The translations under genes were made by a program, and so were the position numbers. This document shows positions 6,426-45,025 of a stretch of DNA of 64,000 nt, piece after piece; the first letter of the stretch is position 1, and every line of letters starts with the position of its first letter. Origin of the DNA: a virus (lineage: Duplodnaviria > Heunggongvirae > Uroviricota > Caudoviricetes); the IMG/VR virus record IMGVR_UViG_3300033994_001334, positions 1 through 64,000 of that record. One strand, 5' to 3'. The notes under the pieces were generated by a model. It saw only the letters and a program-made list of their open reading frames with translations, had not been told where the DNA came from and searched no databases.

Positions 6426-6513
6426 TTTAATGAGTGCTCACTACTATTAGTGGTAATGTGAGTTAAATGTATTGATTGTGACACCACAGCTCGTTTTTTT
6501 ATTAAAAATAATT

Positions 6514-6933
6514 ATGGATATGATATATACAAAAGATTTAATACTATTAAGGGGAGTACCGGGTTCAGGTAAAACAACATTAGGTGAAGTTATCCTACAT
6601 ATGCCCAACAACCAACTAAAACCATTATCCGCCGATGATTACTTTATTGATGACTCAGGAAATTATAATTTTGATGCCTCAATTTTAAAAGAAGCACACA
6701 ATGACTGTCAACAAAGATGTTCTCATCTTATGCAGAACGATGTTATGAAAATTGTAGTTTCAAATACATTTACTCAGGAGTGGGAAATGAAACCATATTA
6801 TCAAATGGCCGAAAGATATGGTTATAGAGTACATAGTGTTATTGTTGAAAACAGACATGGTGGTATAAATGAACACAATGTACCAGAAGAAAAACTTTTA
6901 CAAATGAAAAACCGTTTTGAGGTAAAATTATAA
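6514..6933 (+). CDS. pnk: polynucleotide 5'-kinase-like P-loop kinase (kinase domain only)
   Basis: GVPGSGKTT Walker A. Layout LSADDYFID…VVSNTF…YGYRV parallels the T4 Pnk kinase domain (GCPGSGKST…RDDYR…ISDTNL…YGWKV). Start re-called at MDMIYTK. Confidence 0.55.
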   Translation: MDMIYTKDLILLRGVPGSGKTTLGEVILHMPNNQLKPLSADDYFIDDSGNYNFDASILKEAHNDCQQRCSHLMQNDVMKIVVSNTFTQEWEMKPYYQMAERYGYRVHSVIVENRHGGINEHNVPEEKLLQMKNRFEVKL

Positions 6934-6934
6934 A

Positions 6935-7978: not shown

Positions 7979-7994
7979 TAAAAAAAATTACACA

Positions 7995-8411
7995 ATGAAA
8001 AAAAGAATTTATTTGGATGACGTTAGAACCCCCATTTTAAAAGATGAATGGGTGATTGTTAGGAATTATGAAGAATTTGTAGATAAGATAACCGAAATAG
8101 GGTTAGAAAATATTGAATTGATTTCATTAGACCATGACTTAGGGGATAGTGCAATGAAAGAATGGCACAAAAATGTTTATCATAACTATACATTGAACTA
8201 TGATAATATTACCGAAAAGACGGGTATGGATTGCGTAAAATGGTTAGTTGAACAATGGATGGATGGTAAATCTGTTGTTGATGTTTTTGTACACTCAGCA
8301 AATGCTGTGGGTAGTGGAAATATGATGGGGTACATTAATAATTTTAGACACATCAATCACTTACCACAAAATTGTATTAGAGTTCAAATCGAACATACTG
8401 TTGAAAAATAA
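7995..8411 (+). CDS. hypothetical protein adjacent to the RNA-repair pair (…ISLDHDLGD…)
   Basis: In-frame ATG at 7995. The longer 7896 start overlaps rnlA. Confidence 0.4.
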   Translation: MKKRIYLDDVRTPILKDEWVIVRNYEEFVDKITEIGLENIELISLDHDLGDSAMKEWHKNVYHNYTLNYDNITEKTGMDCVKWLVEQWMDGKSVVDVFVHSANAVGSGNMMGYINNFRHINHLPQNCIRVQIEHTVEK

Positions 8412-14521: not shown

Positions 14522-16420
14522 TTAGACTTTTACGAATTGTTTTGTTATTTGTTTTTGTTTATTGTTTAGTATCAAGAAATAATTACCATTATCTGATGCT
14601 GTCATATCGATTTGTTTGTACGAAACATTTGTCATACCGTTACCCGATATCTCACCTACAGTTTTAATTAATCTTCCTTGTGTATCATAAATACTTGCAA
14701 ATACAGACATATTTACGTCTGGAAACTTAACTTCAACTTCAAACCAACCGGTTGTTGGATTTGGTCTAATTAATGCGGTGATTTCTGTAATATCTAAACC
14801 AGAATTTGGTGACATTTTAAACATTAATGTTGTAACTTGACTTGTTAAAGCAATGTTATAATGGTCACCATTATTATCCGAAGCGTCCATTAATTTTCTT
14901 ACATATATGTTAGTCACAACATCGTTAGTACCGATAGGTGAGAATTTAAGTTTGAATGGTGTTGATGAACCAATAAGTGCTCCGCTAGTTTGGTTATTCA
15001 TACCACCAAATCTAACAGTACCATTTTGTTCATCATGAGTTACATATTGTAACCATGGGGTTTCTCCAAAATTAGATACGATTTCTTCAAATTTAACTTT
15101 TGTGTTATCGTATTTCATTTCAAATTGTAATCCATAAGCCATGTCACCATTTGTATTCACATTAAATGGAACATAAAGAGGTTGACCTGTTGGTGCATTT
15201 AGATTAGGAATAGTAACATCAAATTTACCTTTATAAATTGCTCTTACTATTGGACTACCAAACGCATCTAAAACTGGAGATGAATATGTTCTATCAACGT
15301 CACCTAATATATAATATTTGATATCTACGTTAATATTCGAAGTACCGACACTATCGTAAATGTAATTATTTCCGTTTACGTGGTTTGCCCATAGTGACCA
15401 TTGATTTGTACTTAAAACAAGTGAATCATAATCAGATTTACTCATTGCGTTAATTACAAAAGACGTATCTATTTTCTTTAAACCTGAAACCGATGCATAT
15501 ATTGAATATGGGTCACCACCATCAAGTTTTCCGTTTTTATTTATGTCACCAATTAAATACGATAAACCAAATTTTAAATATGAACGACTAAATGATTGGT
15601 TTACGTCTGTTTGAGTGTACTCATCATAAGTTTTTACCGCATCTGATATTGTAACGGCATAATCTCTAATTTGAGCCAAACTATCTGTTGGGAATCTAAG
15701 TTCAAGTTTATATTTTGTATTTTTATCTACATTAATTAATGTATAGTTACCTGTAGCGTCACATTGTGCTTCTGAAATAAATGCTCCCGTTGATGCTTTA
15801 GTACAGATAACTTTTGGTAATATGGTCATTGAAGGACCCAACCAAACTTTACCTGATATCACTAAGTTACCCATTAATTCGATGTGCATCTTTTGGTAAT
15901 CTAATGTTGCCACATTATCACCGATTGTTGTACCATCAAGCTTAAACATTCTAGCCCAGTTTACTGTGATACTGTCTGCCGCAAAATTTGGTACAACATT
16001 GTTAATGATAAATTTATTGTGGACGATATATCCATTAGTTGTTATTTTAGAACCACTCGAAAGAACTAAGTAATTTCTACCTACAGTCCAATTAGTATCT
16101 GAAGTGTAATTATAAATTCCCGTTGATGAATTATAAGAATCGTATTTGTAGTTATCGAATTTTTTAAACGATACAGCAGGTGTCATTGTACTAATACCGG
16201 CATCCACAGTTGTAGACAAATAACTGAACAATTGTTTCTTAAATTGAAAATCAATTTGAAACGTTCTAATGTCTTTAGATGTGTCTGGTTTATAGTAATA
16301 AGCGACATCTAATGTGTCACCTCTTCTTACGGTTGACATTTGTTGGAAGTGTCCAATTCCTTGAGCGAAAACACCTGCGGACATAAATGCAGATGTGATT
16401 AAAATTAGGATTTTTTTCAT
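14522..16420 (-). CDS. secreted protein with a T9SS C-terminal sorting domain
   Basis: Signal peptide MKKILILITSAFMSAGVFAQ. C-terminus …GNYFLILNNKQKQITKQFVKV is typical of type-A Por_Secre_tail. Confidence 0.6.
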   Translation of the reverse strand: MKKILILITSAFMSAGVFAQGIGHFQQMSTVRRGDTLDVAYYYKPDTSKDIRTFQIDFQFKKQLFSYLSTTVDAGISTMTPAVSFKKFDNYKYDSYNSSTGIYNYTSDTNWTVGRNYLVLSSGSKITTNGYIVHNKFIINNVVPNFAADSITVNWARMFKLDGTTIGDNVATLDYQKMHIELMGNLVISGKVWLGPSMTILPKVICTKASTGAFISEAQCDATGNYTLINVDKNTKYKLELRFPTDSLAQIRDYAVTISDAVKTYDEYTQTDVNQSFSRSYLKFGLSYLIGDINKNGKLDGGDPYSIYASVSGLKKIDTSFVINAMSKSDYDSLVLSTNQWSLWANHVNGNNYIYDSVGTSNINVDIKYYILGDVDRTYSSPVLDAFGSPIVRAIYKGKFDVTIPNLNAPTGQPLYVPFNVNTNGDMAYGLQFEMKYDNTKVKFEEIVSNFGETPWLQYVTHDEQNGTVRFGGMNNQTSGALIGSSTPFKLKFSPIGTNDVVTNIYVRKLMDASDNNGDHYNIALTSQVTTLMFKMSPNSGLDITEITALIRPNPTTGWFEVEVKFPDVNMSVFASIYDTQGRLIKTVGEISGNGMTNVSYKQIDMTASDNGNYFLILNNKQKQITKQFVKV

Positions 16421-17509: not shown

Positions 17510-17582
17510 GGGCTGATGGTATAGATGGCTAACACATGACATTTGCAATGTCAAGTCCCGAGTTCGAGGCTCGGTCGGTCCA
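17510..17582 (+). tRNA. tRNA-Ala(TGC)-like, G3:U70 present, D-arm weak
   Basis: Acceptor GGGCTGA/TCGGTCC. Anticodon stem TGACA/TGTCA with loop TTTGCAA. T-arm CCGAG-TTCGAGG-CTCGG. Confidence 0.5.
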
Positions 17583-17587
17583 CAAAC

Positions 17588-17661
17588 GGGATAAAAGCAC
17601 ATTAGGATGTGCAACCACTAGACGGTGGGAGGTATGGGTTCGAATCCCAAATATTCCACCA
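17588..17661 (+). tRNA. tRNA-like with atypical anticodon arm (4-bp CCAC/GTGG stem, 6-nt loop); encodes CCA
   Basis: Acceptor GGGATAA/ATATTCC. D-arm GCAC…GTGC. T-arm TGGG-TTCGAAT-CCCA. No canonical 5+7+5 anticodon arm. Confidence 0.3.
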
Positions 17662-17690
17662 AAGTGTTCTTTGACATATTGGTTTAACAC

Positions 17691-17763
17691 GGTGCGGTAG
17701 CTCAGTTGGTAGAGCACAGGACTGAAAATCCTGGTGTCGGCAGTTCGATTCTGCCCCGCACCA
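17691..17763 (+). tRNA. tRNA-Phe(GAA)
   Basis: GGTGCGG…CCGCACC. Anticodon stem CAGGA/TCCTG, loop CTGAAAA. Confidence 0.85.
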
Positions 17764-17768
17764 CATAT

Positions 17769-17842
17769 GACTTCGTAGCTCAGTTGGTTAGAGCACATCA
17801 CTTTTAATGATGGGGTCGACAGTTCGAATCTGTCCGGGGTCA
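17769..17842 (+). tRNA. tRNA-Lys(TTT)
   Basis: Anticodon stem CATCA/TGATG, loop CTTTTAA. T-arm GACAG-TTCGAAT-CTGTC. Confidence 0.85.
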
Positions 17843-18093
17843 CTTTAAAATTTAAATAACATGAAAAAAGAACAATCGCTGGACGCAATGTAGGCCGTTA
17901 TCGGAGGCTAAAAGAAATATCTGATAAAATTGGAACTAAACATCAAAGAAAACTTAAAAAATTTTCAGATGGGTTCAAAGAGAAATTCAATTTCTTTTTT
18001 AAAGTTAGAAAATCTGGTTTAATTGATTTTTGTGGTGAAAAAATTGAGGTTGAATTTAATGTAAATGGTCCTTGTGGTAGAGAATGTTTTAGA

Positions 18094-18363
18094 ATGTTCG
18101 AAGACGGTCAATTTAGTAAAGGAAAAAACAAAATTGAAACACGTCATCCAAACATTGTTAAAACGGTCATTCAAGGAAAAAAAGGATGGGGTCTTTGGGT
18201 AAATGAATGGTCCGAAGGAATATCCGAAGGTTCATTTACCAAACATGAAATTCTAAATGAATTTGAAATTCGAAACATAAAAATACCGGAATCGTTTAAA
18301 GAAGATTTTGAAAATAGAATTTGGAAAAAAAGAATTAATTATTTTAATAAAAATAAGATATAA
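18094..18363 (+). CDS. hypothetical small protein between tRNA islands
   Basis: 89-aa ORF. The frame is open upstream to 17860 with no ATG. Confidence 0.35.
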   Translation: MFEDGQFSKGKNKIETRHPNIVKTVIQGKKGWGLWVNEWSEGISEGSFTKHEILNEFEIRNIKIPESFKEDFENRIWKKRINYFNKNKI

Positions 18364-18369
18364 ATTCAT

Positions 18370-18443
18370 AGTTTCTTAGCTCAGTTGGTTAGAGCATCTG
18401 GTTTACATCCAGAGGGTCGTAGGTTCGAATCCTACAGGGACTA
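18370..18443 (+). tRNA. tRNA-Val(TAC)
   Basis: Loop TTTACAT. T-arm GTAGG-TTCGAAT-CCTAC. Confidence 0.85.
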
Positions 18444-18452
18444 CTAATATAC

Positions 18453-18523
18453 ACGGGTGTGGTGCAATGGTAGCATACGGGTCTCCAAAACCTTTGATGG
18501 GAGTTCGAATCTCTCCACCCGTG
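18453..18523 (+). tRNA. tRNA-Trp(CCA)
   Basis: Acceptor ACGGGTG/CACCCGT. Loop CTCCAAA. Confidence 0.7.
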
Positions 18524-18528
18524 CTAAT

Positions 18529-18600
18529 GGTTTCTTTGTGTAACGGAGAGCACGTAACGCTACGGACGTTAAAGTAAGGGTTCGAATCCTTTAGGAACTA
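18529..18600 (+). tRNA. tRNA-Arg(ACG)
   Basis: Anticodon stem TAACG/CGTTA, loop CTACGGA. Confidence 0.8.
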
Positions 18601-18607
18601 CAAATAA

Positions 18608-18677
18608 GGTCAGTTTGGTCGTGGAGGCCAGTTAGTCTGCAAAACTAACGGAGTTGGTTCGATTCCAACATTGACCT
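18608..18677 (+). tRNA. tRNA-Cys(GCA)
   Basis: Anticodon stem (G)TTAGT/ACTAA(C), loop CTGCAAA. T-arm GTTGG-TTCGATT-CCAAC. Confidence 0.75.
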
Positions 18678-18686
18678 CAAATACAT

Positions 18687-18764
18687 GGTGGACGTAGCTT
18701 AGTTGGTTAGAGCACCTGATTGTGGTTCAGGAGGTCATGAGTTCGATTCTCATCGTTCACACCA
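18687..18764 (+). tRNA. tRNA-His(GTG) with encoded G-1 and CCA
   Basis: Loop TTGTGGT. Extra 5' G before GTGGACG. Confidence 0.85.
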
Positions 18765-18767
18765 AAT

Positions 18768-18844
18768 TGGAATGTAGCTCAGTTGGTTAGAGCATCTCGC
18801 TGATACCGAGAAGGTCGATGGTTCGAGTCCATCCATTCCAACCA
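18768..18844 (+). tRNA. tRNA-Ile(GAT), CCA encoded
   Basis: TGGAATG…CATTCCA. Loop CTGATAC. Confidence 0.85.
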
Positions 18845-18849
18845 AACAT

Positions 18850-18921
18850 TGCGGGGTAGAGCAGTGGTAGCTCAACGGGCTCATAACCCGTAGGTCGTGG
18901 GTTCGACTCCCACCCCCGCAA
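18850..18921 (+). tRNA. tRNA-Met(CAT), initiator-like (GGG/CCC in anticodon stem)
   Basis: Anticodon stem ACGGG/CCCGT, loop CTCATAA. Confidence 0.75.
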
Positions 18922-18995
18922 CAAATTTTTAAAAAACATTTTATAATTCAAGATTTCTTTTGTATATTTGAAGTGTTCTTTGATTTAAAATACAT

Positions 18996-19068
18996 AGCGA
19001 GATAGTAGCAGCGGTAGCTCGCCAGGCTCATAACCTGGAGGTCGGGGGTTCGATTCCCTCTCTCGCAA
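18996..19068 (+). tRNA. tRNA-(CAT) second copy with 1:72 A:A mismatch (fMet-like or Ile-LAU)
   Basis: Acceptor aGCGAGA/TCTCGCa. Loop CTCATAA. 3-bp D-stem. Confidence 0.6.
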
Positions 19069-19077
19069 CAAAAATAA

Positions 19078-19151
19078 GCCTCCTTAGCTCAGTTGGCCAG
19101 AGCAACGCACTTGTAATGCGTGGGTCGGCGGTTCGAATCCGTCAGGAGGCT
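19078..19151 (+). tRNA. tRNA-Thr(TGT)
   Basis: GCCTCCT…AGGAGGC. Loop CTTGTAA. Confidence 0.85.
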
Positions 19152-19156
19152 CAATT

Positions 19157-19228
19157 GGTCTCATAGTTAATCGGCTATAATATTGCCCTGTCACGGCAAA
19201 GTGCCGGGTTCGATTCCCGGTGGGACCG
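19157..19228 (+). tRNA. tRNA-Asp(GTC)
   Basis: Anticodon stem TTGCC/GGCAA, loop CTGTCAC. Confidence 0.8.
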
Positions 19229-19450
19229 CAATGAGTAAGAGATACTCAATAGATTTGGTGCCGTTTCTTAACAAAGGTATAGTTGTCGCTTTCCACAACT
19301 TTAAAGAGGGGGTCGTCGGAGTATGGTCGTAACAAATCCACCGAGTATGTTTGATTTATGGTTTCATGTGGTAAGACACTAATGTGTTTGTTTTTAATAA
19401 AACTAAACCGTTAAAATCTACTTATCTGTAATCTCAGGGTAGGGAAAATT

Positions 19451-19541
<91 letters not shown>

Positions 19542-19584
19542 ACAATTATTGTTCTTTGACAAATTTAAAAACAACTTTAAAATT

Positions 19585-19890
19585 ATGGAAACATTATCAT
19601 TTATTTTAGGGGTGTCTTCTGTGGTTGGTATTGTAATTTCAATACTGGCTGTGGTTGGATACGTCAAGGTAGGAAAAGTGGAAAAGAACTTGGAATCTTT
19701 TCAAAATAATATATCCAATGAATTGGATAACATAAGAAAAGAAATCTACGATTTAATTAATCATAATCATGATGAGGTAAATCGAAGGATTGATAACACA
19801 GAAAGAGAAATCTTTTCCCAATTAGACTCTCGATTAGATAAATTGGAAAACAAAATAAAAAATGGTCAAAAGGAAGTTTTAAACTCCTAA
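19585..19890 (+). CDS. membrane-anchored coiled-coil protein (start re-called at METLSF…)
   Basis: TM helix, then a heptad-like region. The longer track ORF starts inside tRNA-Ser. Confidence 0.45.
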   Translation: METLSFILGVSSVVGIVISILAVVGYVKVGKVEKNLESFQNNISNELDNIRKEIYDLINHNHDEVNRRIDNTEREIFSQLDSRLDKLENKIKNGQKEVLNS

Positions 19891-19926
19891 GACATAACTA
19901 AAGTTGAAGAACAATAATTGTTAAAT

Positions 19927-19998
19927 GGCCCTATCGTCTATCGGTTAGGACATCAGGTTTTCATCCTGAAAAGTCGGGTTCGACTCCCGGTGGGGCTA
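19927..19998 (+). tRNA. tRNA-Glu(TTC)
   Basis: Anticodon stem TCAGG/CCTGA, loop TTTTCAT. D-stem GTCT/GGAC. Confidence 0.75.
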
Positions 19999-20019
19999 CA
20001 AAATTTTAAATAAACCAGT

Positions 20020-20262
20020 ATGTTAGATAGAATAATAGAACAGTATCAAGATGAAGAAATCTTGATTGCAGACGGATTCGATGATGCCGTAATCGGAATT
20101 GATGAGAAATCAATGAGATTAATTTATTCAGTTGAGAAGTGTATTGAAATCCTAATGAAACAGGGGATGGATATGACTGAAGCGATTGAATACTTTGAAT
20201 ATAATGTATCCGGTTCATATGTCGGAGAAAAAACACCAATATGGTGTGAAGATTTATTTTAA
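20020..20262 (+). CDS. hypothetical acidic small protein
   Basis: 80-aa ORF. Confidence 0.4.
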   Translation: MLDRIIEQYQDEEILIADGFDDAVIGIDEKSMRLIYSVEKCIEILMKQGMDMTEAIEYFEYNVSGSYVGEKTPIWCEDLF

Positions 20263-20370
20263 AAAAATTAACATTTTATGTTACCTTATTGTTAAAGGGA
20301 TTTATTGATGTGTTTTTATTATTATATTATAATATCTATGGGTAATAATAAATAAACTAAAACACTTAAC

Positions 20371-20931
20371 ATGAAAAAAATCCTATTCTTTTTTGTTGTC
20401 TTAATTCCAATGATAACAAAATCACAGTCTTTCACATTTAAACCTCTTGTTGACCAAAACATATCTTGTTACGGTAACAATGATGGGTCAGTACAATTGA
20501 ATGCTGAACCCGCATCTAATTACAAATATACCATATCAAGATTAACCTTTAAGGATACTAATTCTTCAGGTATATTTGGAAACTTAAAACCAGGTGTCTA
20601 TAAAGTTTGTGCAACAAATAATAAAATAACACAATGTTCAAAGTTAACAATAACAGAACCAAAAAAATTATCAATTAAATTTGCGGTCGATAAATACCCA
20701 ACAACAAAAGACCCTATGGGTACAGTTGTGATTGATGTTCTTGGTGGTGTATCGGTACTTCAACCTATTTTAACAACTTGGATTAATAGTAAAGGTGTAC
20801 AAATGAATGATGTAAACAATAATTTTGCCACTTATATGGAGAATATGCCCGCAGACACATATACCGTTAAACTTGAAGATGATAACGGTTGTTTTCTCAC
20901 TAAATCATTTAAATTAATAAAAAAGAAATAA
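20371..20931 (+). CDS. secreted protein with an SprB-repeat-like motif
   Basis: Signal peptide MKKILFFFVVLIPMITKSQ. CYGNNDGSVQL resembles the SprB C.G.NDG repeat. Confidence 0.5.
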   Translation: MKKILFFFVVLIPMITKSQSFTFKPLVDQNISCYGNNDGSVQLNAEPASNYKYTISRLTFKDTNSSGIFGNLKPGVYKVCATNNKITQCSKLTITEPKKLSIKFAVDKYPTTKDPMGTVVIDVLGGVSVLQPILTTWINSKGVQMNDVNNNFATYMENMPADTYTVKLEDDNGCFLTKSFKLIKKK

Positions 20932-20959
20932 AATAAACAAAACAAAAAAAACAAAAATT

Positions 20960-21124
20960 ATGAAAAAAGAACAAATACTAGGAATCGTAAGACACACATT
21001 AACATTTATTGGTGGTGCTTTAGTAGCAAAAGGTTTAGCAACAGACGCTATATCTAATGAATTAATTGGTGCAATCATGACATTAATTGGTGGTGTGTGG
21101 TCAATCGTATCAAAAAATAAATAA
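20960..21124 (+). CDS. small membrane protein (54 aa; MKKEQILGIVRHTLTFIGGALVAKGL…), possibly holin-like
   Basis: Two hydrophobic segments. Below the track size cutoff. Confidence 0.3.
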   Translation: MKKEQILGIVRHTLTFIGGALVAKGLATDAISNELIGAIMTLIGGVWSIVSKNK

Positions 21125-21321
21125 AAATTTTTTAAAAAAGATTTGGAAATTAAAAAACTTTTCGTATCTTTGTAATACTTATCAGAATAACGATGAATAA
21201 CTTGGTATACATACAACCCTCAAATAATCCACTTAGTGGTAATGGGAGAGGTATATATTTATGTGTCCCAAGTTCGGAGTTAAACAGATTATAAGAAACT
21301 AGACTTATGAAACACTTTAAA

Positions 21322-21351
21322 CCCGGACTCCAAAAAAGTTCGGGTTTTTTT
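21322..21351 (+). terminator. CCCGGACT ccaaaaa AGTTCGGG + T7
   Basis: 8-bp stem (one G:U) plus T-run. Confidence 0.5.
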
Positions 21352-21412
21352 GTTTTTATCGAGTTTGTTTCTTATCTTTGTAACGGTCTTTGACATATTG
21401 GAATTAAAAGAT

Positions 21413-21500
21413 GCCGAGGTGATGGAATGGTAGACATGAGGGACTTAAAATCCCTTGACCTGAAAAGGTCGTGTGGGTTCGACTCCCATCCTCGGTACCA
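21413..21500 (+). tRNA. tRNA-Leu(TAA), class II, CCA encoded
   Basis: Loop CTTAAAA. Long variable arm TGACCTGAAAAGGTCGT. Confidence 0.85.
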
Positions 21501-21509
21501 AAAAAAAAT

Positions 21510-21581
21510 GGGCTCATAGTTAAAGGGATATAACTTCTCACTTCTAATGAGATGTTCCAAGTTCGAGTCTTGGTGAGCCTA
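21510..21581 (+). tRNA. tRNA-Arg(TCT)
   Basis: Anticodon stem TCTCA/TGAGA, loop CTTCTAA. Confidence 0.85.
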
Positions 21582-21589
21582 CAAAACTT

Positions 21590-21878
21590 AGGATTAATTA
21601 CCCTAAGTATGTCAGGTTCGAAACTGACGATTGATTATGGTGTATGGTGCACACCACCCCTTAACACGGTTCGAGTCCGTGGTCGATGGGTCGACAGGGG
21701 AGGGAGATTATGGTTCGAATCCATTTTAATCAGCGAAGATAATGGTTTTCTCCATTCAACGGATGTCGACAATCCAGAGTGGAATTAGAATTCACCACCC
21801 TTTGCTGAGGCCTCATTAAAACTCAGGAAGCAATTAAGATTGGGACGAGACGGGTATCCCATCATTATCTTTTTTTTT
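21590..21878 (+). ncRNA. tRNA-fragment / tRNA-like structured region (three T-arm-like hairpins, no complete cloverleaf), ending in a terminator
   Basis: GTCAG-GTTCGAAA-CTGAC, CACGG-TTCGAGT-CCGTG and ATGG-TTCGAAT-CCAT hairpins, plus anticodon-like hairpins. Ends GGGACgagacgggtaTCCC + T9. Confidence 0.35.
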
Positions 21879-21953
21879 CGGGATGTAGCGTAGTCCGGTT
21901 ATCGCGCATGGTTTGGGACCATGAGGTCGCAGGTTCGAATCCTGCCATCCCGA
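21879..21953 (+). tRNA. tRNA-Pro(TGG)
   Basis: CGGGATG…CATCCCG. Loop TTTGGGA. Confidence 0.8.
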
Positions 21954-21960
21954 CATAAAT

Positions 21961-22032
21961 TCCTCGGTAGCTCAGCGGTAGAGCAGTAGACTGTTAATCT
22001 ATTGGTCCCAAGTTCAAATCTTGGCCGGGGAG
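21961..22032 (+). tRNA. tRNA-Asn(GTT)
   Basis: Loop CTGTTAA. T-arm CCAAG-TTCAAAT-CTTGG. Confidence 0.85.
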
Positions 22033-22107
22033 CAAAAAAATCGTAACAGAAATGTTGAAGGTGAGTAATGATATCATCACCACAGGTTAATCGATGTCCT
22101 GTAGTTT

Positions 22108-22181
22108 GCCTTCGTAGGAGAACTGGTATATCCACTGCACTTAGGATGCAGATTTTGTGGGTTCGAATCCCACCGAGGGTA
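22108..22181 (+). tRNA. class-I tRNA with anticodon TAG (reads CUA); Leu by anticodon but lacks the long variable arm
   Basis: Acceptor GCCTTCG/CGAGGGT. Anticodon stem CTGCA/TGCAG, loop CTTAGGA. Variable region only ATTTT. Discriminator A. Confidence 0.6.
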
Positions 22182-22187
22182 CAATTT

Positions 22188-22272
22188 GGGAGCGTCGCAT
22201 AGTGGCAATTGCAAGGGACTGTAAATCCCTCCTCTTTTGAGTTCGAAGGTTCGAGTCCTTCCGCTCCCACCA
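22188..22272 (+). tRNA. tRNA-Tyr(GTA), class II, CCA encoded
   Basis: GGGAGCG…CGCTCCC. Loop CTGTAAA. Long variable arm. Confidence 0.8.
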
Positions 22273-22284
22273 AAATAAAAAGTT

Positions 22285-22845
22285 ATGACAAGAAGTAAAG
22301 TGTTTGATGATATCTTTAAAAGATTAACACCAGAAGAAATGGAAAAGATAAAACAAGAAAGAATTAGTTATGTTAAGTCATTAACATCAGAATTTCAACT
22401 TGGTTTATATGTCGGTGAACATATTGTGAATCGTCATCTACCAACTCTTTCAACTGATGGTATCCGAACCAGAAATGTTATACAAGTTTCTGAGGAAGAT
22501 GTTACAGAAAATGAAAGGTTGGACAAAGATTGGTTTTCAACAACTCGTTATGGTGAAAACAACAACGGGTCGGAAAATGGTGATAAAGAAAAATGGAATT
22601 TATATTACCAACATAATAAGATGTTGGAAAAAAAATATCTTCCCAATCCACTTGTTTGTTATGTGGGAACATTAAACATTCAGGATATGGATGAATTCAA
22701 AAAAGGATTAATCCAAACATTGTGGGATTGTGATACATGTTCATATAATCTTGAAAAGGATAATATAAAAATATATAACGATGAAGGATATTATTCCACA
22801 ATAATTGAATTTAAATTGGATGAAGATAAGTTAACATTAAAATAA
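22285..22845 (+). CDS. hypothetical protein
   Basis: 186-aa ORF between tRNA islands. Confidence 0.45.
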   Translation: MTRSKVFDDIFKRLTPEEMEKIKQERISYVKSLTSEFQLGLYVGEHIVNRHLPTLSTDGIRTRNVIQVSEEDVTENERLDKDWFSTTRYGENNNGSENGDKEKWNLYYQHNKMLEKKYLPNPLVCYVGTLNIQDMDEFKKGLIQTLWDCDTCSYNLEKDNIKIYNDEGYYSTIIEFKLDEDKLTLK

Positions 22846-22851
22846 ATTTTG

Positions 22852-22928
22852 GGCCTTTAGCTCATTAGGTTAGAGCAGCTCGCTCATAACGAGAAGGTGA
22901 TAGGTTCGAATCCTATATGGCCCACCAA
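22852..22928 (+). tRNA. tRNA-(CAT) third copy (elongator Met or Ile-lysidine), CCA encoded
   Basis: Anticodon stem GCTCG/CGAGA, loop CTCATAA. T-arm ATAGG-TTCGAAT-CCTAT. Confidence 0.8.
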
Positions 22929-22992
22929 AATGTGGTCAACCCTTAACTCCAAAACTTTTTATTGAGTCTTTGTTATGGGAAGACCACTCCAA

Positions 22993-23064
22993 GCGAGTAT
23001 AGTATAACGGTTATTATGCCTGGCTTCCAACCAGGATATGTCAGTTCGATTCTGACTACTCGCT
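22993..23064 (+). tRNA. tRNA-Gly(TCC)
   Basis: GCGAGTA…TACTCGC. Loop CTTCCAA. Confidence 0.8.
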
Positions 23065-23073
23065 CCGTATAAT

Positions 23074-23143
23074 GTCCTGTGGTGTAACGGCAGCACGTCT
23101 GGTTTTGGTCCAGAAAATTGAGGTTCGAATCCTTGCGGGACAA
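23074..23143 (+). tRNA. tRNA-Gln(TTG)
   Basis: Anticodon stem TCTGG/CCAGA, loop TTTTGGT. Confidence 0.7.
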
Positions 23144-23202
23144 CTAAAATAATTCTAATATGAAAAAAACAGATGACTTCTATTGAATAAACTCAATAGA
23201 TT

Positions 23203-23460
23203 ATGTCAAAAAACAGAAACAGAGCACGACTCTCAAAATCGGAATGTGGTAGGGATTACCACTTAATTTCTTTGAACGAATGGTATCCCCTTTATTGGGA
23301 TGAAGGATTAAATTTCTATCCATACTATAAAAAAGGTTATAAAAATCCCAATAAAAGAATTCCCATGTATAAAGTACGTGAGTACAAGACGTGGAAATAT
23401 AATAGAAGAACTAAATGGAAGGTTACCCAAGTTGGTGAAGGGGTCAGTTTGCTAAACTGA
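23203..23460 (+). CDS. doubtful ORF (3' 44 nt overlap tRNA-Ser)
   Basis: 85-aa ORF whose end runs into a well-formed tRNA. Confidence 0.25.
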   Translation: MSKNRNRARLSKSECGRDYHLISLNEWYPLYWDEGLNFYPYYKKGYKNPNKRIPMYKVREYKTWKYNRRTKWKVTQVGEGVSLLN

Positions 23461-23505
23461 TAGGGTGTCACAGCCGCGAGGGTTCGAGCCCCTCATCTTC
23501 CGCCA
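23417..23505 (+). tRNA. tRNA-Ser(GCT), class II, CCA encoded
   Basis: Acceptor GGAAGGT/ATCTTCC. Anticodon stem TCAGT/ACTGA, loop TTGCTAA. T-arm GAGGG-TTCGAGC-CCCTC. Confidence 0.7.
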
Positions 23506-23530: not shown

Positions 23531-23992
23531 ATGAAAAACTTTAGAACATTGTACGGGAAAAAAATTACCGATGTTGTACAATACATCAAAGACTACTTAG
23601 TAGATAAAAATGATGTTGAGATATTAATTGGTTCAGACTCACAATCGTTTAGTAATTCTAAAACGGTGTACGGAGTCGTTATTGCACTTTATACCAAAGG
23701 TAAAGGTGCTCACGTATTATGTACTAAAGAAACCGTTCCATTTGAAAAAAACACACCTCACAGATTAATGACCGAAGTATGGAAAGCGGTTGAGGTTGCG
23801 GAATTTTTAAGAAATAACGATTTACCAAGAGCGGAATGGATTGATATTGATTTAAATCCAGACCCACGATTCAAATCCAATTCAGTTTTAAGACAAGCCG
23901 TTGGTTTGGTTGAAGGTATGGGTTATAAAGTTAGATACAAACATGCGGGTGCGTTAGTTACATATACCGCAAATCACTTAGTAAGATTATAA
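23531..23992 (+). CDS. RNase-H-like YkuK/DUF458-type protein (start re-called at MKNFRTLY)
   Basis: …ILIGSDSQ…VYGVVIALYT…. The longer track start lies inside tRNA-Ser. Confidence 0.45.
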   Translation: MKNFRTLYGKKITDVVQYIKDYLVDKNDVEILIGSDSQSFSNSKTVYGVVIALYTKGKGAHVLCTKETVPFEKNTPHRLMTEVWKAVEVAEFLRNNDLPRAEWIDIDLNPDPRFKSNSVLRQAVGLVEGMGYKVRYKHAGALVTYTANHLVRL

Positions 23993-24417
23993 TGAAAAAT
24001 AAAATAAACATAGTTAATAGAAAATCTAAATTTGAATACCAATTCGTTGACACGTATACCGCCGGTGTTGTGTTAAATGGTGTCGAAGTTAAATTTATAC
24101 GAGATGGTAATTTATCATTTACGGATTCATATTGTATTTTCCAAAATGGAGAATTATTCATGAAAAATACTTCCATATCCGGTATTGGTAATGATAATAT
24201 CAGAAGAGACAGAAAACTATTACTGAAGAAAAAAGAACTTACTAAGTTAAATAAAGATTTAATTAATGGTTTATCAATAATCCCCTATCGTTTATATGAG
24301 AATGATAGGGGAATATTTAAAATTGAAGTTGTTCTTGCAAAAGGAAAGAAACTTCACGATAAGCGAGAGTCAATTAAAAAGAGAGATGTTGAAAGAGAAA
24401 TAAAAAAAATATTTTAA
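23992..24417 (+). CDS. smpB: SsrA-binding protein SmpB
   Basis: Matches along the whole SmpB length: NRKSKFEY…AGVVLNGVEVKFIRDGNLSFTDSY…RDRKLLLKKKEL…IIPYRLYENDRGIFKIEVVLAKGKKLHDKRESIKKRDVEREI. Confidence 0.85.
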   Translation: MKNKINIVNRKSKFEYQFVDTYTAGVVLNGVEVKFIRDGNLSFTDSYCIFQNGELFMKNTSISGIGNDNIRRDRKLLLKKKELTKLNKDLINGLSIIPYRLYENDRGIFKIEVVLAKGKKLHDKRESIKKRDVEREIKKIF

Positions 24418-24481: not shown

Positions 24482-26365
24482 ATGACAACATCAATTTCAA
24501 CAATTTTAAGTTATTCGTGGATGTTAATTCCACTAATTGTAATCATCGGTTACAAATGGACATTAAGGGTCTTATGTGGTATGGTAATCATTCCCGAAGA
24601 CAAGATTGGTTTAGTAACCAAAAAATTCGTATTATTTGGTACGAACAAATCACTTCCTGATGGTAAAATCATCGCATTAAATGGTGAACCTGGATATCAG
24701 GCTGACACATTAGCTCCCGGTTTATATTGGGGATATTGGGTTTGGCAATATTCAGTTGAACAATCGGCACTTACAGTTATTCCTAAAGGTAAAATTGGTT
24801 TAGTTACCGCGAAAGACGGAGCACAATTACCTGTAGGTTCAATCTTAGCTCGACATGCTGACTGTGACAATTATCAAGACGCAAGAGCGTTCCTTACAAA
24901 AGGTGGACAACGTGGTAAACAAGTTGGTTATCTAAACAATGGTGTTTACCGTATTAATCCTTACTTATTTGAATTATTCGCGGCAGACATTACAAATATT
25001 GAAGATGGTATGGTTGGTGTTATTACCGCATTAGATGGTACACCTTTAGACCAAAATAGTATTGCAGGTAAAGTAGTTGATAACCACAACAACTTCCAAG
25101 ACTTTGATAAATTTTTGGAAAATGGTGGACAACGTGGTCTTCAAATTCAAGTAGTTCAAGCGGGTAACTATTCATTGAACCCATGGGCGGTTGAAGTTGA
25201 AAAAGTTGAGATGACAAAAATTCCAATTGGATATGTTGGTGTCATTATATCATATGTTGGTGGAGAAGGTAAAGATGTAACAGGTGAAGGATTTAAACAC
25301 GGTAACATCGTTAATAAAGGTGAGAAAGGTGTTTGTATATCACCACTTGACCCGGGTAAATATGCAATCAATCCTTACACTACTAAAATTGAAGTTGTTC
25401 CAACTACAAACTTAGTATTGAATTGGGCTAACGCAAGAACTGAATCACATAATCTTGATAAAGGATTAAGTACAATCACAGTTCGTTCTAAAGATGGTTT
25501 CCCATTCAATTTGGATGTATCTCAAATCATTCATATACCAGCACCTGAAGCACCAAAAGTAATTGCTCGTTTCGGTTCAATGCAAAACTTGGTATCTCAA
25601 GTATTAGAACCAACAATTGGTAACTACTTCCGTAACTCGGCTCAAGGTTCTGATGTTATTTCATTCTTATCTACTCGTCAAGAAAGACAAAATTCAGCTA
25701 AATTGGCGATTAGTAAAGTATTGGATGAATATAATGTTCACGCAGTTGATACGTTAATTGGTGATATTACCCCACCAGAATCGTTGATGAAAACATTAAC
25801 TGACCGTAAAATTGCTGAAGAAGAAAAAGTAACATACGACACACAACGTCAGGCTCAAGACCAACGTAAAACATTGGAATCAGCAAAGGCTTTGGCCGAT
25901 ATGCAAGGTAAGATGGTTGCCGCTCAACAATCGGTAGAGATTTCCGAAAGAGAAGCACAGGCATTGGTAAAGAAAAATGAAGGTGAGGCTAAATCGATTG
26001 AATTGAAAGCGGGAGCAAACTCAAAGGCTAAGATTCTAAACGCAGAAGCTGAGGCTAAACAAATTGAATTAACAGGTAACGCTGAAGCAACAAAAATTGA
26101 GGCGATTGGTAAAGCAACCGCTGAGGCGTATGAAAAACAAGTAACCGCGATGGGTGCTGATAATTTCGCTAAGTTCAAGATTACCGAAATGATTGGACAA
26201 AACGGTATCAAAATTATTCCTGAAATTCTTATCTCAGGTAATGAAGGTGGTAACGGTCCGATATCGGGATTACTTGGAATGGAATTATTAAGTATGGTTC
26301 GTGAAAAAAATAATTCAAAAGAAATTCTAAACGAAACAATCAAGGACGCATTACCTAAAGTGTAA
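24482..26365 (+). CDS. flotillin-like SPFH/band-7 protein
   Basis: N-terminal TM. SPFH domain. C-terminal Ala/Glu-rich flotillin repeats (AEAEAKQIELTGNAEATKIEAIGKATAEAYEKQ). Confidence 0.8.
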   Translation: MTTSISTILSYSWMLIPLIVIIGYKWTLRVLCGMVIIPEDKIGLVTKKFVLFGTNKSLPDGKIIALNGEPGYQADTLAPGLYWGYWVWQYSVEQSALTVIPKGKIGLVTAKDGAQLPVGSILARHADCDNYQDARAFLTKGGQRGKQVGYLNNGVYRINPYLFELFAADITNIEDGMVGVITALDGTPLDQNSIAGKVVDNHNNFQDFDKFLENGGQRGLQIQVVQAGNYSLNPWAVEVEKVEMTKIPIGYVGVIISYVGGEGKDVTGEGFKHGNIVNKGEKGVCISPLDPGKYAINPYTTKIEVVPTTNLVLNWANARTESHNLDKGLSTITVRSKDGFPFNLDVSQIIHIPAPEAPKVIARFGSMQNLVSQVLEPTIGNYFRNSAQGSDVISFLSTRQERQNSAKLAISKVLDEYNVHAVDTLIGDITPPESLMKTLTDRKIAEEEKVTYDTQRQAQDQRKTLESAKALADMQGKMVAAQQSVEISEREAQALVKKNEGEAKSIELKAGANSKAKILNAEAEAKQIELTGNAEATKIEAIGKATAEAYEKQVTAMGADNFAKFKITEMIGQNGIKIIPEILISGNEGGNGPISGLLGMELLSMVREKNNSKEILNETIKDALPKV

Positions 26366-26377
26366 TAGATATAGGGT

Positions 26378-26432
26378 TTTGGAGAGTTACGAGGTAACCA
26401 AAAAATTACTTCGTAACACTCTCTCCAAAAAT
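26378..26432 (+). terminator. long imperfect hairpin (TTGGAGAGTTACGAGGTAA…TTACTTCGTAACACTCTCTCCAA)
   Basis: About 20-bp interrupted stem downstream of the flotillin stop. Confidence 0.4.
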
Positions 26433-26523
26433 ATTTTTAAAAAAAGTTTTAAAAATACTTGTTTTTTAAAAAAAGTTTCGTATATTTGTATTCACAACAA
26501 CTAATTAAAACATTTTTACTACA

Positions 26524-42294: not shown

Positions 42295-42299
42295 TTTTT

Positions 42300-45008: not shown

Positions 45009-45025
45009 ATGATATTTTTTTTATT

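What the first reader, a model, noticed from the sequence alone, without database searches (positions are those of the whole stretch)
23992..24417. Phage-encoded SmpB
A full-length SmpB homolog sits at the end of the tRNA islands. Virus-encoded SmpB is uncommon. It implies that the element carries or depends on its own trans-translation system and supports the tmRNA interpretation of the 30.9-31.5 kb RNA.
Basis: partly seen in the sequence, partly recalled or inferred. Interest (0 to 1): 0.55.

Follow-up and report, generated by a model that had tools for sequence, protein, structure and literature searches.

The report
Phage SmpB with intron-split tmRNA partner
A large freshwater phage carries a real, selected copy of the ribosome-rescue protein SmpB together with its RNA partner (tmRNA), whose gene is hidden from standard tools by a self-splicing intron; phage SmpB itself has been reported before in huge phages.

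Summary
The ORF at 23992-24417 (+) is a full-length SmpB. It exceeds the curated cutoffs of Pfam PF01668 and of the TIGR00086/NF003843 equivalogs. Its model matches only SmpB structures with significance. Its C-terminal tail is intact, and dN/dS is about 0.1.

ARAGORN and Rfam find no tmRNA in the window and call only a group I intron at 31268-31482. The region 30893-31489 is nevertheless a tmRNA gene split in its T-loop by a 192-nt group I intron (31278-31469). Close relatives carry the same gene without the intron, and those copies pass the Rfam tmRNA threshold at 68-90 bits. The acceptor stem, which spans the intron, shows compensatory changes and an invariant G3-U70. The tag, GNVYNNMEVAGLLATSKVAA, is conserved and about twice the usual length.

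This SmpB belongs to a phage-only clade that is at most 52% identical to any cellular SmpB sampled; the closest are Bacteroidota. Its central loop is 5-6 residues shorter than in all 80 cellular relatives.

SmpB and tmRNA in huge phages were reported by Al-Shayeb et al. (2020), and intron-form tmRNA genes are known in bacteria. This is therefore a new member of a known kind with some unusual details. Interest is moderate.

The parts
23992..24417 (+). smpB coding sequence (141 aa including the C-terminal tail; stop codon TAA 24415-24417)
   Evidence: PF01668 E=3.4e-42. TIGR00086 and NF003843 score above their equivalog cutoffs. Fold search returns only SmpB with significance. dN/dS is 0.09-0.12 against relatives.
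23531..23992 (+). PF04308 (RNaseH_like / DUF458) ORF of 153 aa whose stop overlaps the smpB start codon; probably co-transcribed, function unknown
   Evidence: PF04308 E=7e-17. The sequence shows the TAATG overlap. The same gene pair is kept in relatives L007/L008 and L017, whose SmpB is 76-82% identical.
17510..23505 (+). Array of 25 tRNA genes covering all 20 amino acids, ending 26 nt before the PF04308-smpB pair
   Evidence: ARAGORN and Rfam.
30893..31277 (+). tmRNA exon 1: 5' acceptor strand GGGGAUG, the D-loop analogue, the tag reading frame, the pseudoknot region, the 5' T-stem strand and the first T-loop U
   Evidence: It is 94% identical to the intronless tmRNAs of L015 and L050, 88% to L017 and 80% to L007. 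Those homologues score 68-90 bits on Rfam RF00023, whose gathering score is 47. ARAGORN calls a tmRNA on the spliced sequence at a 95% threshold, with 0 false positives in 20 shuffled windows.
30986..31048 (+). Tag reading frame inside the tmRNA: GGC resume codon to TAA stop, encoding GNVYNNMEVAGLLATSKVAA
   Evidence: ARAGORN calls an identical tag in the intronless L017 at default settings. Across 66 related tmRNAs there are 17 tag variants, all matching GNV(Y/L)..M...G(L/I)....VA(A) and 20-22 aa long.
31278..31469 (+). Group I intron (192 nt) inserted between the first and second nucleotides of the tmRNA T-loop
   Evidence: Rfam RF00028 65.8 bits (gathering score 50), full-length match to the model. 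U31277 pairs with G31287 in P1, and the last intron base, G31469, is the omega G. The intron is absent from relatives L015 and L050, whose tmRNA is 94% identical. A homologous intron sits at the same site in a second lineage, L162/L196. It is 73% similar to the annotated psbA intron of Synechococcus phage S-CBWM1.
31470..31489 (+). tmRNA exon 2: remainder of the T-loop (UCGAAA), 3' T-stem strand CCCGU, 3' acceptor strand CAUCUCC, discriminator A31488 and C31489; CCA is not fully encoded
   Evidence: After splicing, the T-arm reads ACGGG-UUCGAAA-CCCGU and all 7 acceptor pairs form. Acceptor positions 4-7 co-vary across 14 unique homologues, and G3-U70 and A73 are invariant.
31490..31518 (+). 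Terminator-like hairpin followed by a T-run, directly after the tmRNA 3' end
   Evidence: Terminator scan: 12 pairs, 5 of them G-C.

Best explanation
The ORF encodes a functional SmpB kept by a lineage of large freshwater phages that probably infect Bacteroidota. It acts as the protein half of a phage-borne trans-translation module.

Shown here:
- The protein is a full-length SmpB under purifying selection.
- A cognate tmRNA gene lies 6.5 kb downstream on the same strand.
- That gene is interrupted in its T-loop by a group I intron.
- Intronless and intron-bearing alleles coexist in nature.
- The tmRNA keeps a conserved tag frame and the alanine identity elements G3-U70 and A73.

Inferred from what is known about tmRNA-SmpB:
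- The pre-tmRNA self-splices, which restores the T-loop.
- Host RNase P and the CCA-adding enzyme mature its ends, and host AlaRS charges it.
- Phage SmpB binds the tRNA-like domain, and EF-Tu delivers the complex to ribosomes stalled on broken or non-stop mRNA.
- The SmpB tail (GKKLHDKR plus helix) probes the empty mRNA channel.
- Translation resumes on the tag frame and appends (A)GNVYNNMEVAGLLATSKVAA, which releases the ribosome.

Proposed benefit (inference): the module keeps ribosomes available during infection, when host mRNA decay or RNA-cutting host defences would otherwise strand them. This fits its position in a translation-maintenance region that also holds a complete tRNA set, an RNA repair cassette (P-loop kinase, T4 Rnl1-type ligase, cyclic-phosphate processing domain) and a Clp/Hsp100 unfoldase.
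For: SmpB identity.

Selection: dN/dS is 0.087-0.12 in three pairwise comparisons.

Phage-specific clade: 120 of the top 120 database hits are 69-98% identical proteins of about 141 aa from metagenomes, on contigs up to 301 kb. There are 56 IMG/VR viral loci. The best of 581 cellular hits are 45-52% identical and are Bacteroidota. In a neighbour-joining tree the phage sequences form one clade next to Bacteroidota.

tmRNA: the in-silico spliced gene is called by ARAGORN at the 95% threshold, with no false positives in 1.28 Mb of shuffled sequence. Intronless homologues are called at default settings and by Rfam RF00023 at 68-90 bits against a gathering score of 47. All 7 acceptor pairs are kept in 14 unique sequences, with two-sided changes at positions 4-7. 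The tag is conserved in 66 tmRNAs.

Linkage: the tmRNA lies 1-7 kb from smpB both in the window's clade and in a second phage clade whose SmpB is 54-58% identical. Only 1 of 80 cellular loci has a tmRNA within 8 kb of smpB.

Intron.

Phage context: endolysin at 57673-58500, a holin family hit in the identical locus L001, RNA repair genes, and the Clp ATPase and Rnl1 also lying near smpB in the second clade.
Against: - Nothing here is experimental. Splicing, alanylation, SmpB-tmRNA binding and tagging are all inferred.
- ARAGORN at default threshold does not call the spliced window sequence or the L015/L050 homologues. Rfam finds no tmRNA in the window even at E<=10.
- The SmpB central loop is 11 residues, against 16-17 in 80 of 80 cellular relatives. 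That loop is thought to contribute to alanylation and EF-Tu activation (PMC4131195), so activity could be altered.
- Several relatives with 67-75% identical SmpB (L009-L014, L016) show no tmRNA within 10 kb.
- CCA is not encoded at the 3' end.
- The window holds no capsid, portal or terminase gene, so phage origin rests on relatives and on lysis genes.
- The proposed benefit (ribosome supply, counter-defence) rests on gene neighbourhood only.
Confidence: 0.8

Rival explanations
1. The SmpB acts against the host system rather than as a rescue factor. With its shortened central loop it would bind and sequester host tmRNA (or occupy stalled ribosomes) and so block host trans-translation. This would be analogous to the TLD-only tmRNA of mycobacteriophage DS6A, which inhibits tmRNA in E. 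coli.
For: The central loop is 5-6 residues shorter than in all 80 cellular relatives. That loop is linked to alanylation and EF-Tu activation (PMC4131195). Inhibition by a phage tmRNA fragment has a precedent. Lak-C1 and the LR7565xx phages have smpB but no ARAGORN-detectable tmRNA within 20 kb.
Against: A linked phage tmRNA with intact identity elements and a strongly conserved, translatable tag frame co-occurs with smpB in two phage clades. The ribosome-probing tail and the HDKR motif are fully conserved. Neither feature would be needed by a pure decoy.
Confidence: 0.08
2. The gene is a recently captured host gene carried as a passenger, or the contig is a mis-binned piece of a Bacteroidota genome. 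In either case the SmpB would be cellular.
For: The closest cellular relatives are Bacteroidota. A Clp ATPase lies 2-4 kb from smpB in three Flavobacteriaceae genomes, and one is also present in the window. No virion structural gene was found in the 64 kb.
Against: No cellular SmpB exceeds 52% identity, whereas dozens of metagenomic and viral contigs carry 69-98% identical copies. The clade-specific loop deletion is found in 8 of 8 clade members and in 0 of 80 cellular sequences. Purifying selection acts within the phage clade. Relatives are IMG/VR viral contigs up to 310 kb carrying phage-type genes such as T5orf172, DUF3310, GIY-YIG and SLT. The window also holds an endolysin, an all-20-amino-acid tRNA array and a phage-type intron.
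Confidence: 0.04
3. The module is decaying in this particular phage. On this view the intron insertion inactivated the tmRNA, and smpB is on its way to becoming a pseudogene.
For: Intron-bearing alleles are rare: 2 of about 89 informative metagenome hits, plus the window and L003. CCA is not encoded in either intron-bearing lineage.
Against: The intron matches the full Rfam group I model above threshold and has canonical -1 U-G and omega-G boundaries. A homologous intron sits at the same site in a tmRNA lineage only about 80% identical, with intact exons, a matching acceptor stem and compensatory changes inside the intron, which suggests the intron was retained while the tmRNA stayed functional. 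The smpB ORF is intact, and the identical protein occurs on at least 15 contigs from several samples.
Confidence: 0.06

Closest known systems
Bacterial SmpB (SsrA-binding protein; Pfam PF01668, TIGR00086), e.g. Thermotoga maritima 7LJP, Thermus thermophilus 1J1H/4V8Q
   Same: The match to the profile is full length and above the equivalog cutoffs. The fold is the same beta-barrel plus C-terminal helix. The invariant residues and the GKKxHDKR tail motif are conserved.
   Different: It is phage-encoded and at most 52% identical to any cellular SmpB sampled. Its central loop is 11 residues instead of 16-17 and lacks the usual aromatic residue and the N-H-D/E-P motif. Its tail, at 24 residues, is at the short end of the cellular range.
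SmpB and tmRNA of huge phages (Al-Shayeb et al. 2020, Nature 578:425, PMC7162821); SmpB homologues in Prevotella Lak megaphages and in LR756501-4
   Same: SmpB is encoded by a very large phage alongside many tRNAs and other translation genes. Many of these phage SmpBs have Bacteroidetes-like best hits.
   Different: The window's SmpB is only 36-42% identical to those phage proteins. It belongs to a separate freshwater clade with the loop deletion. Here the tmRNA partner lies within 7 kb and is intron-split. Lak-C1 and LR756501/2/4 show no ARAGORN tmRNA within 20 kb of smpB.
Intron-form tmRNA genes of bacteria (Williams 2002; tmRNA database expansion, PMC11915505)
   Same: A group I intron sits in the T-loop of the tRNA-like domain, with a -1 U paired to G in P1 and a terminal G. 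Such genes are missed by standard tmRNA finders.
   Different: This one is in a phage genome. The parts of that survey I searched (it covered RefSeq viruses) mention no phage intron form. By my reading of that paper's numbering, the insertion is at T-loop subsite 2 (between loop nucleotides 1 and 2), which it reports only from Anaerolineae and one Myxococcota; its Bacteroidia cases are at subsite 3. The intron resembles phage introns such as the psbA intron of cyanophage S-CBWM1.
Phage tmRNAs without SmpB (mycobacteriophage Bxz1 group, Bacillus phage G, TLD-only DS6A; PMC4131195)
   Same: These are also phage-borne tmRNA genes.
   Different: No Mycobacterium phage appears among the organism and host names listed for the 58 SmpB tblastn hits. 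If those phages lack smpB, they must use host SmpB, or in the case of DS6A titrate it. This phage carries both partners.

Membership tests
SmpB (PF01668 / TIGR00086) | Sequence match to the family profile above the curated threshold over the full length | tested here: met
   PF01668 144.2 bits against 27. TIGR00086 147.2 against 119.1. NF003843 143.4 against 130. Profile coverage is 2-142 of 144.
SmpB (PF01668 / TIGR00086) | Oligonucleotide-binding beta-barrel fold followed by a C-terminal helix | tested here: met
   The AlphaFold2 model (pLDDT 76) has strands at 14-28, 47-62, 72-77, 94-103 and 109-120 and helices at 80-91 and 124-140. The top 18 Foldseek PDB hits are all SmpB.
SmpB (PF01668 / TIGR00086) | C-terminal tail with the conserved G-K-K-x-H/Y-D-K-R motif and a basic helix of about 25 residues, needed for A-site and mRNA-channel probing | tested here: met
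   The sequence is GKKLHDKRESIKKRDVEREIKKIF, 24 residues from G118. The cellular range is 24-30. H122, D123, K124 and R125 are each the majority residue in 114-123 of 123 aligned sequences.
SmpB (PF01668 / TIGR00086) | [quoted passage not shown] | tested here: inconclusive
   The loop is present but shortened. It has 11 residues between the I62 and R74 alignment columns, against 16-17 in 80 of 80 cellular relatives and 14 in the sister phage clade. It is not lost outright as in Carsonella or the hemoplasmas. The functional consequence is unknown.
SmpB (PF01668 / TIGR00086) | A cognate tmRNA gene in the same genome | tested here: met
   The tmRNA is at 30893-31277 plus 31470-31489.
SmpB (PF01668 / TIGR00086) | Binds tmRNA and supports trans-translation on stalled ribosomes | not testable with these tools
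   This needs biochemistry.
tmRNA (Rfam RF00023), intron gene form | tRNA-like domain: 7-bp acceptor stem with G3-U70 and discriminator A, plus a T-arm | tested here: met
   After intron removal the acceptor is GGGGAUG/CAUCUCC with A73, and the T-arm is ACGGG-UUCGAAA-CCCGU. All 7 acceptor pairs hold in 14 unique homologues, with compensatory changes at positions 4-7.
tmRNA (Rfam RF00023), intron gene form | Internal tag reading frame with a resume codon and a stop, conserved at the peptide level | tested here: met
   The frame is 30986-31048 and encodes GNVYNNMEVAGLLATSKVAA. The tag is identical in L017 as called by ARAGORN. There are 17 variants of one pattern among 66 tmRNAs.
tmRNA (Rfam RF00023), intron gene form | Recognised by a tmRNA model | tested here: inconclusive
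   The window as it stands gives no hit with ARAGORN or Rfam. The spliced sequence is called by ARAGORN only at the 95% threshold. The intronless homologues L017, L015, L007 and L020 pass the RF00023 gathering score. The published tmRNA_intron model was not available to run.
tmRNA (Rfam RF00023), intron gene form | Pseudoknots PK1-PK4 | not tested
   The full-length RF00023 matches in homologues (model positions 1-374) imply the core architecture, but the pseudoknots were not analysed individually.
Group I intron (Rfam RF00028) | Catalytic core matching the family model; -1 U paired with G in P1; terminal G | tested here: met
   The score is 65.8 bits against 50, over model positions 1-253. 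P1 pairs are G31274-C31290, G31275-C31289, G31276-C31288 and U31277-G31287. The terminal G is G31469.
Group I intron (Rfam RF00028) | Self-splicing activity | not testable with these tools
   Support is indirect: a homologous intron at the same site in a diverged tmRNA, with both exons intact.
Huge-phage translation gene complement (Al-Shayeb et al. 2020) | Encoded on a phage genome | tested here: inconclusive
   In favour: an endolysin, a holin family hit in the identical locus, near-identical and related IMG/VR viral contigs up to 310 kb, and a 25-tRNA array. No capsid, portal or terminase gene lies within the 64 kb.

The most novel reading that the evidence does not exclude
The phage may run a private, partly orthogonal trans-translation system. 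Under this reading, the loop-shortened SmpB has co-evolved with the phage tmRNA so that the pair works independently of the host pair. The unusually long, strongly conserved 20-22-aa tag would route (or protect) stalled products differently from the host's tag of about 10 aa, possibly through the phage's own Clp/Hsp100 unfoldase. The whole module would belong to an anti-defence island (full tRNA set, RNA repair cassette, SmpB-tmRNA) that counters host immunity based on cutting tRNA or mRNA. The intron, a mobile element, would additionally hide the gene from annotation.
Probability: 0.15. Interest if true: 0.75.

Novelty: new member of a known kind. Interest (0 to 1): 0.42.

Why it matters
The result shows that a widespread group of large freshwater phages carries both halves of the bacterial ribosome-rescue system as a linked, selected module. 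It also shows that the RNA half can go unnoticed by routine annotation when a group I intron splits it. Surveys that count phage tmRNAs with ARAGORN, as in the huge-phage study, will therefore undercount them.

The conserved double-length tag and the trimmed SmpB loop offer concrete experimental handles on a question nobody has yet tested: what phage-encoded trans-translation is for. The neighbourhood of a complete tRNA set and RNA-repair enzymes suggests it protects translation against RNA-targeting host defences.

Tried and rejected
- ARAGORN and Rfam (gathering threshold, E<=1 on the whole window, E<=10 on 30800-31600) found no tmRNA in the window. I rejected that after reading the flanks and comparing homologues.
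- ARAGORN at default settings found nothing on any of 408 in-silico splice-junction combinations. It works only at the 95% threshold, so the tmRNA call rests mainly on homologues.
- An exact-pattern scan of viral contigs with a 21-nt 3' tmRNA segment found nothing, because the T-stem varies. A scan of metagenome contigs for the exon-intron junction also found nothing. A more conserved 23-nt pattern then gave 91 loci.
- A regex-based measure of the SmpB loop anchored inconsistently. I replaced it with alignment-column counts.
- The Bacteroidota -7 promoter motif TAnnTTTG is not enriched in the window: 123 matches against 110 +/- 10 expected. One copy at 30866-30873 lies about 20 nt upstream of the tmRNA, and similar copies occur upstream of the tmRNA in L007 and L020, but this is not used as evidence for the host.
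- The MAFFT alignment of tmRNAs mis-registers the 5' end, so I counted stem pairs directly from the sequence ends.
- No tmRNA was found by ARAGORN within 20 kb of smpB in Lak-C1 or LR756501/2/4. The whole genomes were not scanned.
- A megablast of 24 kb of the window against known phages matched only a tRNA, so no catalogued close relative exists.
Full report
**1. The observation**

The ORF at 23992-24417 on the + strand runs from ATG to TAA and encodes 141 aa. It matches Pfam PF01668 (SmpB) with E=3.4e-42 over profile positions 2-140 of 143 and matches no other family. It scores above the curated equivalog cutoffs of NCBIfam TIGR00086 (147.2 against 119.1 bits) and NF003843 (143.4 against 130).

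All 15 significant PDB sequence matches are SmpB. The best is Thermotoga maritima 7LJP at E=4.8e-37. An AlphaFold2 model (mean pLDDT 76) has the expected beta-barrel followed by a C-terminal helix. Its 18 best Foldseek matches in the PDB are all SmpB chains, and the next hit has E>0.2.

The gene follows an array of 25 tRNA genes (17510-23505) that covers all twenty amino acids. Only a 153-aa PF04308 (RNaseH_like) ORF at 23531-23992 lies between the array and smpB. Its stop codon overlaps the smpB start as TAATG.

**2. Is the gene alive, and whose is it?**

Codon comparisons with relatives that are 96% and 82% identical give dN/dS of 0.09-0.12, which indicates strong purifying selection.

The 120 best hits among 5.8 billion proteins are all SmpB proteins of about 141 aa, 69-98% identical, from metagenomes. 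They sit on contigs of up to 301 kb. The identical protein is found on at least 15 contigs from several freshwater samples with the same gene order. IMG/VR holds 56 viral loci with relatives, including a 96% identical one and a 76% identical one on a 310-kb viral contig.

By contrast, the best 80 of 581 confirmed hits in one-genome-per-species bacterial and archaeal contigs reach only 40-52% identity. The top ones are all Bacteroidota (Roseivirga, Cellulophaga, Chitinophagales, Flavisolibacter). That search finds candidates by shared 8-residue words, so the cellular sample is biased.

In a neighbour-joining tree, the window's clade and a second phage clade (54-58% identical) form one group next to the Bacteroidota sequences. 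The Lak megaphage and the 735-kb phage LR756501 group with the Bacteroidota sequences; LR756502 and LR756504 fall in separate nearby phage branches. The tree has no support values and is only indicative.

Evidence that the element is a phage:
- an endolysin at 57673-58500;
- a holin-family ORF in the identical locus L001;
- the tRNA array;
- typical phage genes in relatives (T5orf172, DUF3310, GIY-YIG, SLT).

No capsid, portal or terminase gene lies in these 64 kb. A protein with a type IX secretion sorting domain at 14522-16420 fits a Bacteroidota host.

**3. Features of the protein**

It is retained as GKKLHDKRESIKKRDVEREIKKIF, 24 residues from the GKK glycine. The 80 cellular relatives have 24-30. 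The H, D, K and R residues are those found in 114-123 of the 123 aligned sequences.

The unusual feature is the central loop. Between the alignment columns of I62 and R74:
- the window's clade has 11 residues (8 of 8 unique sequences);
- the sister phage clade has 14 (14 of 14);
- other phage SmpBs have 15-17;
- cellular SmpBs have 16-17 (80 of 80).

This loop contacts the tRNA-like domain of tmRNA. It is thought to help alanylation and EF-Tu activation, and it is lost outright only in a few reduced genomes (PMC4131195). Here it is trimmed but not lost, and what this does to function is unknown.

**4. The RNA partner**

ARAGORN and Rfam report no tmRNA anywhere in the window, even at permissive thresholds. 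Rfam calls a group I intron at 31268-31482 with 65.8 bits against a gathering score of 50.

The sequence tells more. Position 30893 begins GGGGAUGAAUGGAAUUGA, a tmRNA-like 5' end. Positions 31470-31489 read UCGAAACCCGUCAUCUCCAC, which supplies the rest of a T-loop, a T-stem strand and an acceptor strand complementary to the 5' end. A terminator hairpin follows at 31490-31518.

Removing 31278-31469 joins ACGGGU to UCGAAACCCGU and gives a normal T-arm (ACGGG-UUCGAAA-CCCGU). On this spliced sequence ARAGORN calls a 405-nt tmRNA at a 95% threshold. At the same threshold there were no false calls in twenty shuffled 64-kb windows. At the default threshold it calls nothing.

The decisive evidence comes from relatives:
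- In the syntenic position, L007 (SmpB 82% identical) and L017 (76%) carry intronless tmRNAs that ARAGORN calls at default settings.
- L015 and L050 (SmpB 95-96% identical) carry intronless copies 94% identical to the spliced window sequence.
- Rfam's tmRNA model scores L017, L015, L007 and a sister-clade copy (L020) at 89.6, 83.8, 70.4 and 68.0 bits, against a gathering score of 47. All are full-length matches.
- Across 14 unique sequences, all seven acceptor pairs are maintained, with two-sided compensatory changes at positions 4-7. G3-U70 and the discriminator A are invariant. Because the 3' acceptor strand lies beyond the intron in the window, this covariation ties the two exons together.

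**5. The intron**

The boundaries follow the group I rules. U31277 pairs with G31287 in P1, and the last intron base, G31469, is the omega G.

The insertion point lies between the first and second T-loop nucleotides. By my reading of the numbering in the 2025 tmRNA database paper, this is subsite 2. That paper reports subsite 2 only from Anaerolineae and one Myxococcota, and reports its Bacteroidia cases at subsite 3 (PMC11915505). I could not see the figure, so the subsite label is tentative.

Among 91 metagenome loci that share a conserved 23-nt segment of this tmRNA, 80 are intronless, 2 are cut off, 7 are T-loop variants, and 2 (L162, L196) carry a homologous intron at the same site. In L162/L196 the tmRNA is only about 80% identical, both exons are intact, and compensatory changes occur inside the intron. 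This argues that the intron splices and the gene works. The intron is 73% similar over 78% of its length to the annotated psbA intron of Synechococcus phage S-CBWM1, and it resembles introns in several jumbo phages.

**6. The tag and the linkage**

The tag frame (30986-31048) encodes GNVYNNMEVAGLLATSKVAA. The same tag is called in L017. In 66 related tmRNAs there are 17 variants of one pattern, 20-22 aa long and ending VAA, AVA, VVA or NVA. The most frequent tag length in the tmRNA database is 10 aa.

The sister phage clade also has a tmRNA, on the opposite strand 1-2 kb from smpB. ARAGORN misses it, but an nhmmer profile and Rfam find it. Only 1 of 80 cellular loci has a tmRNA within 8 kb of smpB, so the tight linkage is a phage feature. 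It is not universal: relatives L009-L014 and L016 show no tmRNA within 10 kb. Lak-C1 and LR756501/2/4 show none within 20 kb by ARAGORN.

**7. How it most likely works**

Shown here: a selected, full-length SmpB; a linked, conserved tmRNA with alanine identity elements and a conserved tag frame; and a canonical group I intron that is polymorphic in the population.

Inferred from the established mechanism of tmRNA-SmpB:
- the intron self-splices;
- host enzymes mature the RNA, add CCA (the window encodes ...A-CAAAA, not CCA) and charge it with alanine;
- phage SmpB binds the tRNA-like domain, and its tail licenses entry into ribosomes stalled on truncated mRNA;
- the tag is added and the ribosome is released.

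Why a phage would keep this is inference from the neighbourhood. The same region holds:
- a complete tRNA set;
- a P-loop kinase (6472-6933), a T4 Rnl1-family RNA ligase (6935-7978) and a cyclic-phosphate processing domain protein (7896-8411), which together resemble a heal-and-seal RNA repair cassette;
- a two-ring Clp/Hsp100 ATPase (4063-6075).

Rnl1 and the Clp ATPase are also near smpB in the sister clade. I therefore think the module keeps ribosomes available when host or phage nucleases, or RNA-cutting defences, generate broken mRNAs. I put about 0.8 on 'functional SmpB working with the phage tmRNA' and much less on any particular benefit.

**8. Comparison with what is known, and novelty**

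Al-Shayeb et al. (2020) state that huge phages encode tmRNAs and SmpB. At least eight of their supplementary GenBank files annotate an SsrA-binding protein, several with Bacteroidetes best hits. Lak megaphages and LR756501-4 have homologues 36-42% identical to this one. Phage tmRNAs are known from the Bxz1 group, phage G and DS6A. Intron-form tmRNA genes are known from 883 bacterial sequences.

I found no report of an intron-form tmRNA in a phage in the searchable library. This is absence of evidence only.

The SmpB is therefore a new member of a known kind. The particular points of interest are:
- the clade-specific loop deletion;
- the double-length conserved tag;
- the intron that hides the partner gene from ARAGORN, the tool the huge-phage survey used to find tmRNAs;
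- the linkage with RNA-repair genes.

**9. Verdict**

Interest is moderate at 0.42.

Noticed in passing
window 28600-29536: An ORF-free stretch (longest ORF 49 aa) is conserved at 72-94% in relatives. RNAalifold on 7 sequences predicts 81 pairs, 22 of them with compensatory changes. The stretch contains four repeats of a GGCTAT(G/C/A)T...TTACTTCT unit and has no Rfam match. It is a candidate for an undescribed structured RNA.
   Followed up: partly
L020:9521-9927, L007:16303-16712, L162:3144-3550: GOLLD RNA (Rfam RF02032, 318-326 bits) is present in relatives. In L020 it ends 74 nt upstream of smpB. It is absent from the window, where the syntenic gap (29989-30118) is only 129 nt.
   Followed up: partly
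window 6472-8411: Three adjacent genes resemble an RNA heal-and-seal repair cassette of the T4 Pnkp/Rnl1 kind: an AAA_33 P-loop kinase, a T4 Rnl1-family RNA ligase and a cREC_REC cyclic-phosphate processing domain protein. An Rnl1 homologue also lies near smpB in the sister phage clade.
   Followed up: partly
window 4063-6075: A two-ring Clp/Hsp100 ATPase of 670 aa has no N-domain and scores below the ClpA and ClpB equivalog cutoffs. It contains a G-V-G-F stretch where ClpP-docking loops sit in ClpC/ClpA; this placement is my reading and was not tested. Homologues lie 5-9 kb from smpB in the sister phage clade and 2-4 kb from smpB in three Flavobacteriaceae genomes.
   Followed up: partly
L070 and L034 (reverse strand, directly after the tmRNA 3' end); L015 and L050 3' flanks: An ORF that looks like a GIY-YIG homing endonuclease (by eye) sits immediately downstream of the tmRNA in some sister-clade phages. 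L015 and L050 share a similar 3' flank (TAGACTTTTTGTACTTT). The tmRNA 3' end therefore looks like a hotspot for mobile elements in these phages.
   Followed up: no
L018-L035, L070 (e.g. L020:11299-11693, minus strand): Full-length tmRNAs of the sister phage clade (5' end GGGAGUG, tags such as GNILNKMALVGLVRQDELVNVA) are missed by ARAGORN even at a 90% threshold, but pass the Rfam RF00023 gathering score. ARAGORN-based surveys of phage tmRNA will undercount them.
   Followed up: yes
window 24482-28599: Directly downstream of smpB lie a 627-aa SPFH/Band 7 protein and a 691-aa protein with a partial match to the MXAN_6230/SCO0854 RING-domain family (226 bits, cutoff 600). The 691-aa protein is conserved at 86-100% in relatives. 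The function of both is unknown.
   Followed up: no
window 14522-16420 (minus strand): A 632-aa protein carries a C-terminal type IX secretion sorting domain (Por_Secre_tail), a Bacteroidota-specific signal. This is a hint to the host phylum.
   Followed up: no
window 39199-51240 (minus strand): A cluster of sugar and modification enzymes: an FkbM methyltransferase/HtrL fusion (1031 aa), a carbamoyltransferase (902 aa) and two tandem GlcNAc-type glycosyltransferases (420 and 418 aa).
   Followed up: no
window 17588-17658: A possible 26th tRNA-like sequence scores just below the Rfam gathering score (27.4 against 29 bits). It lies between tRNA-Ala and tRNA-Phe and is not called by ARAGORN.
   Followed up: no
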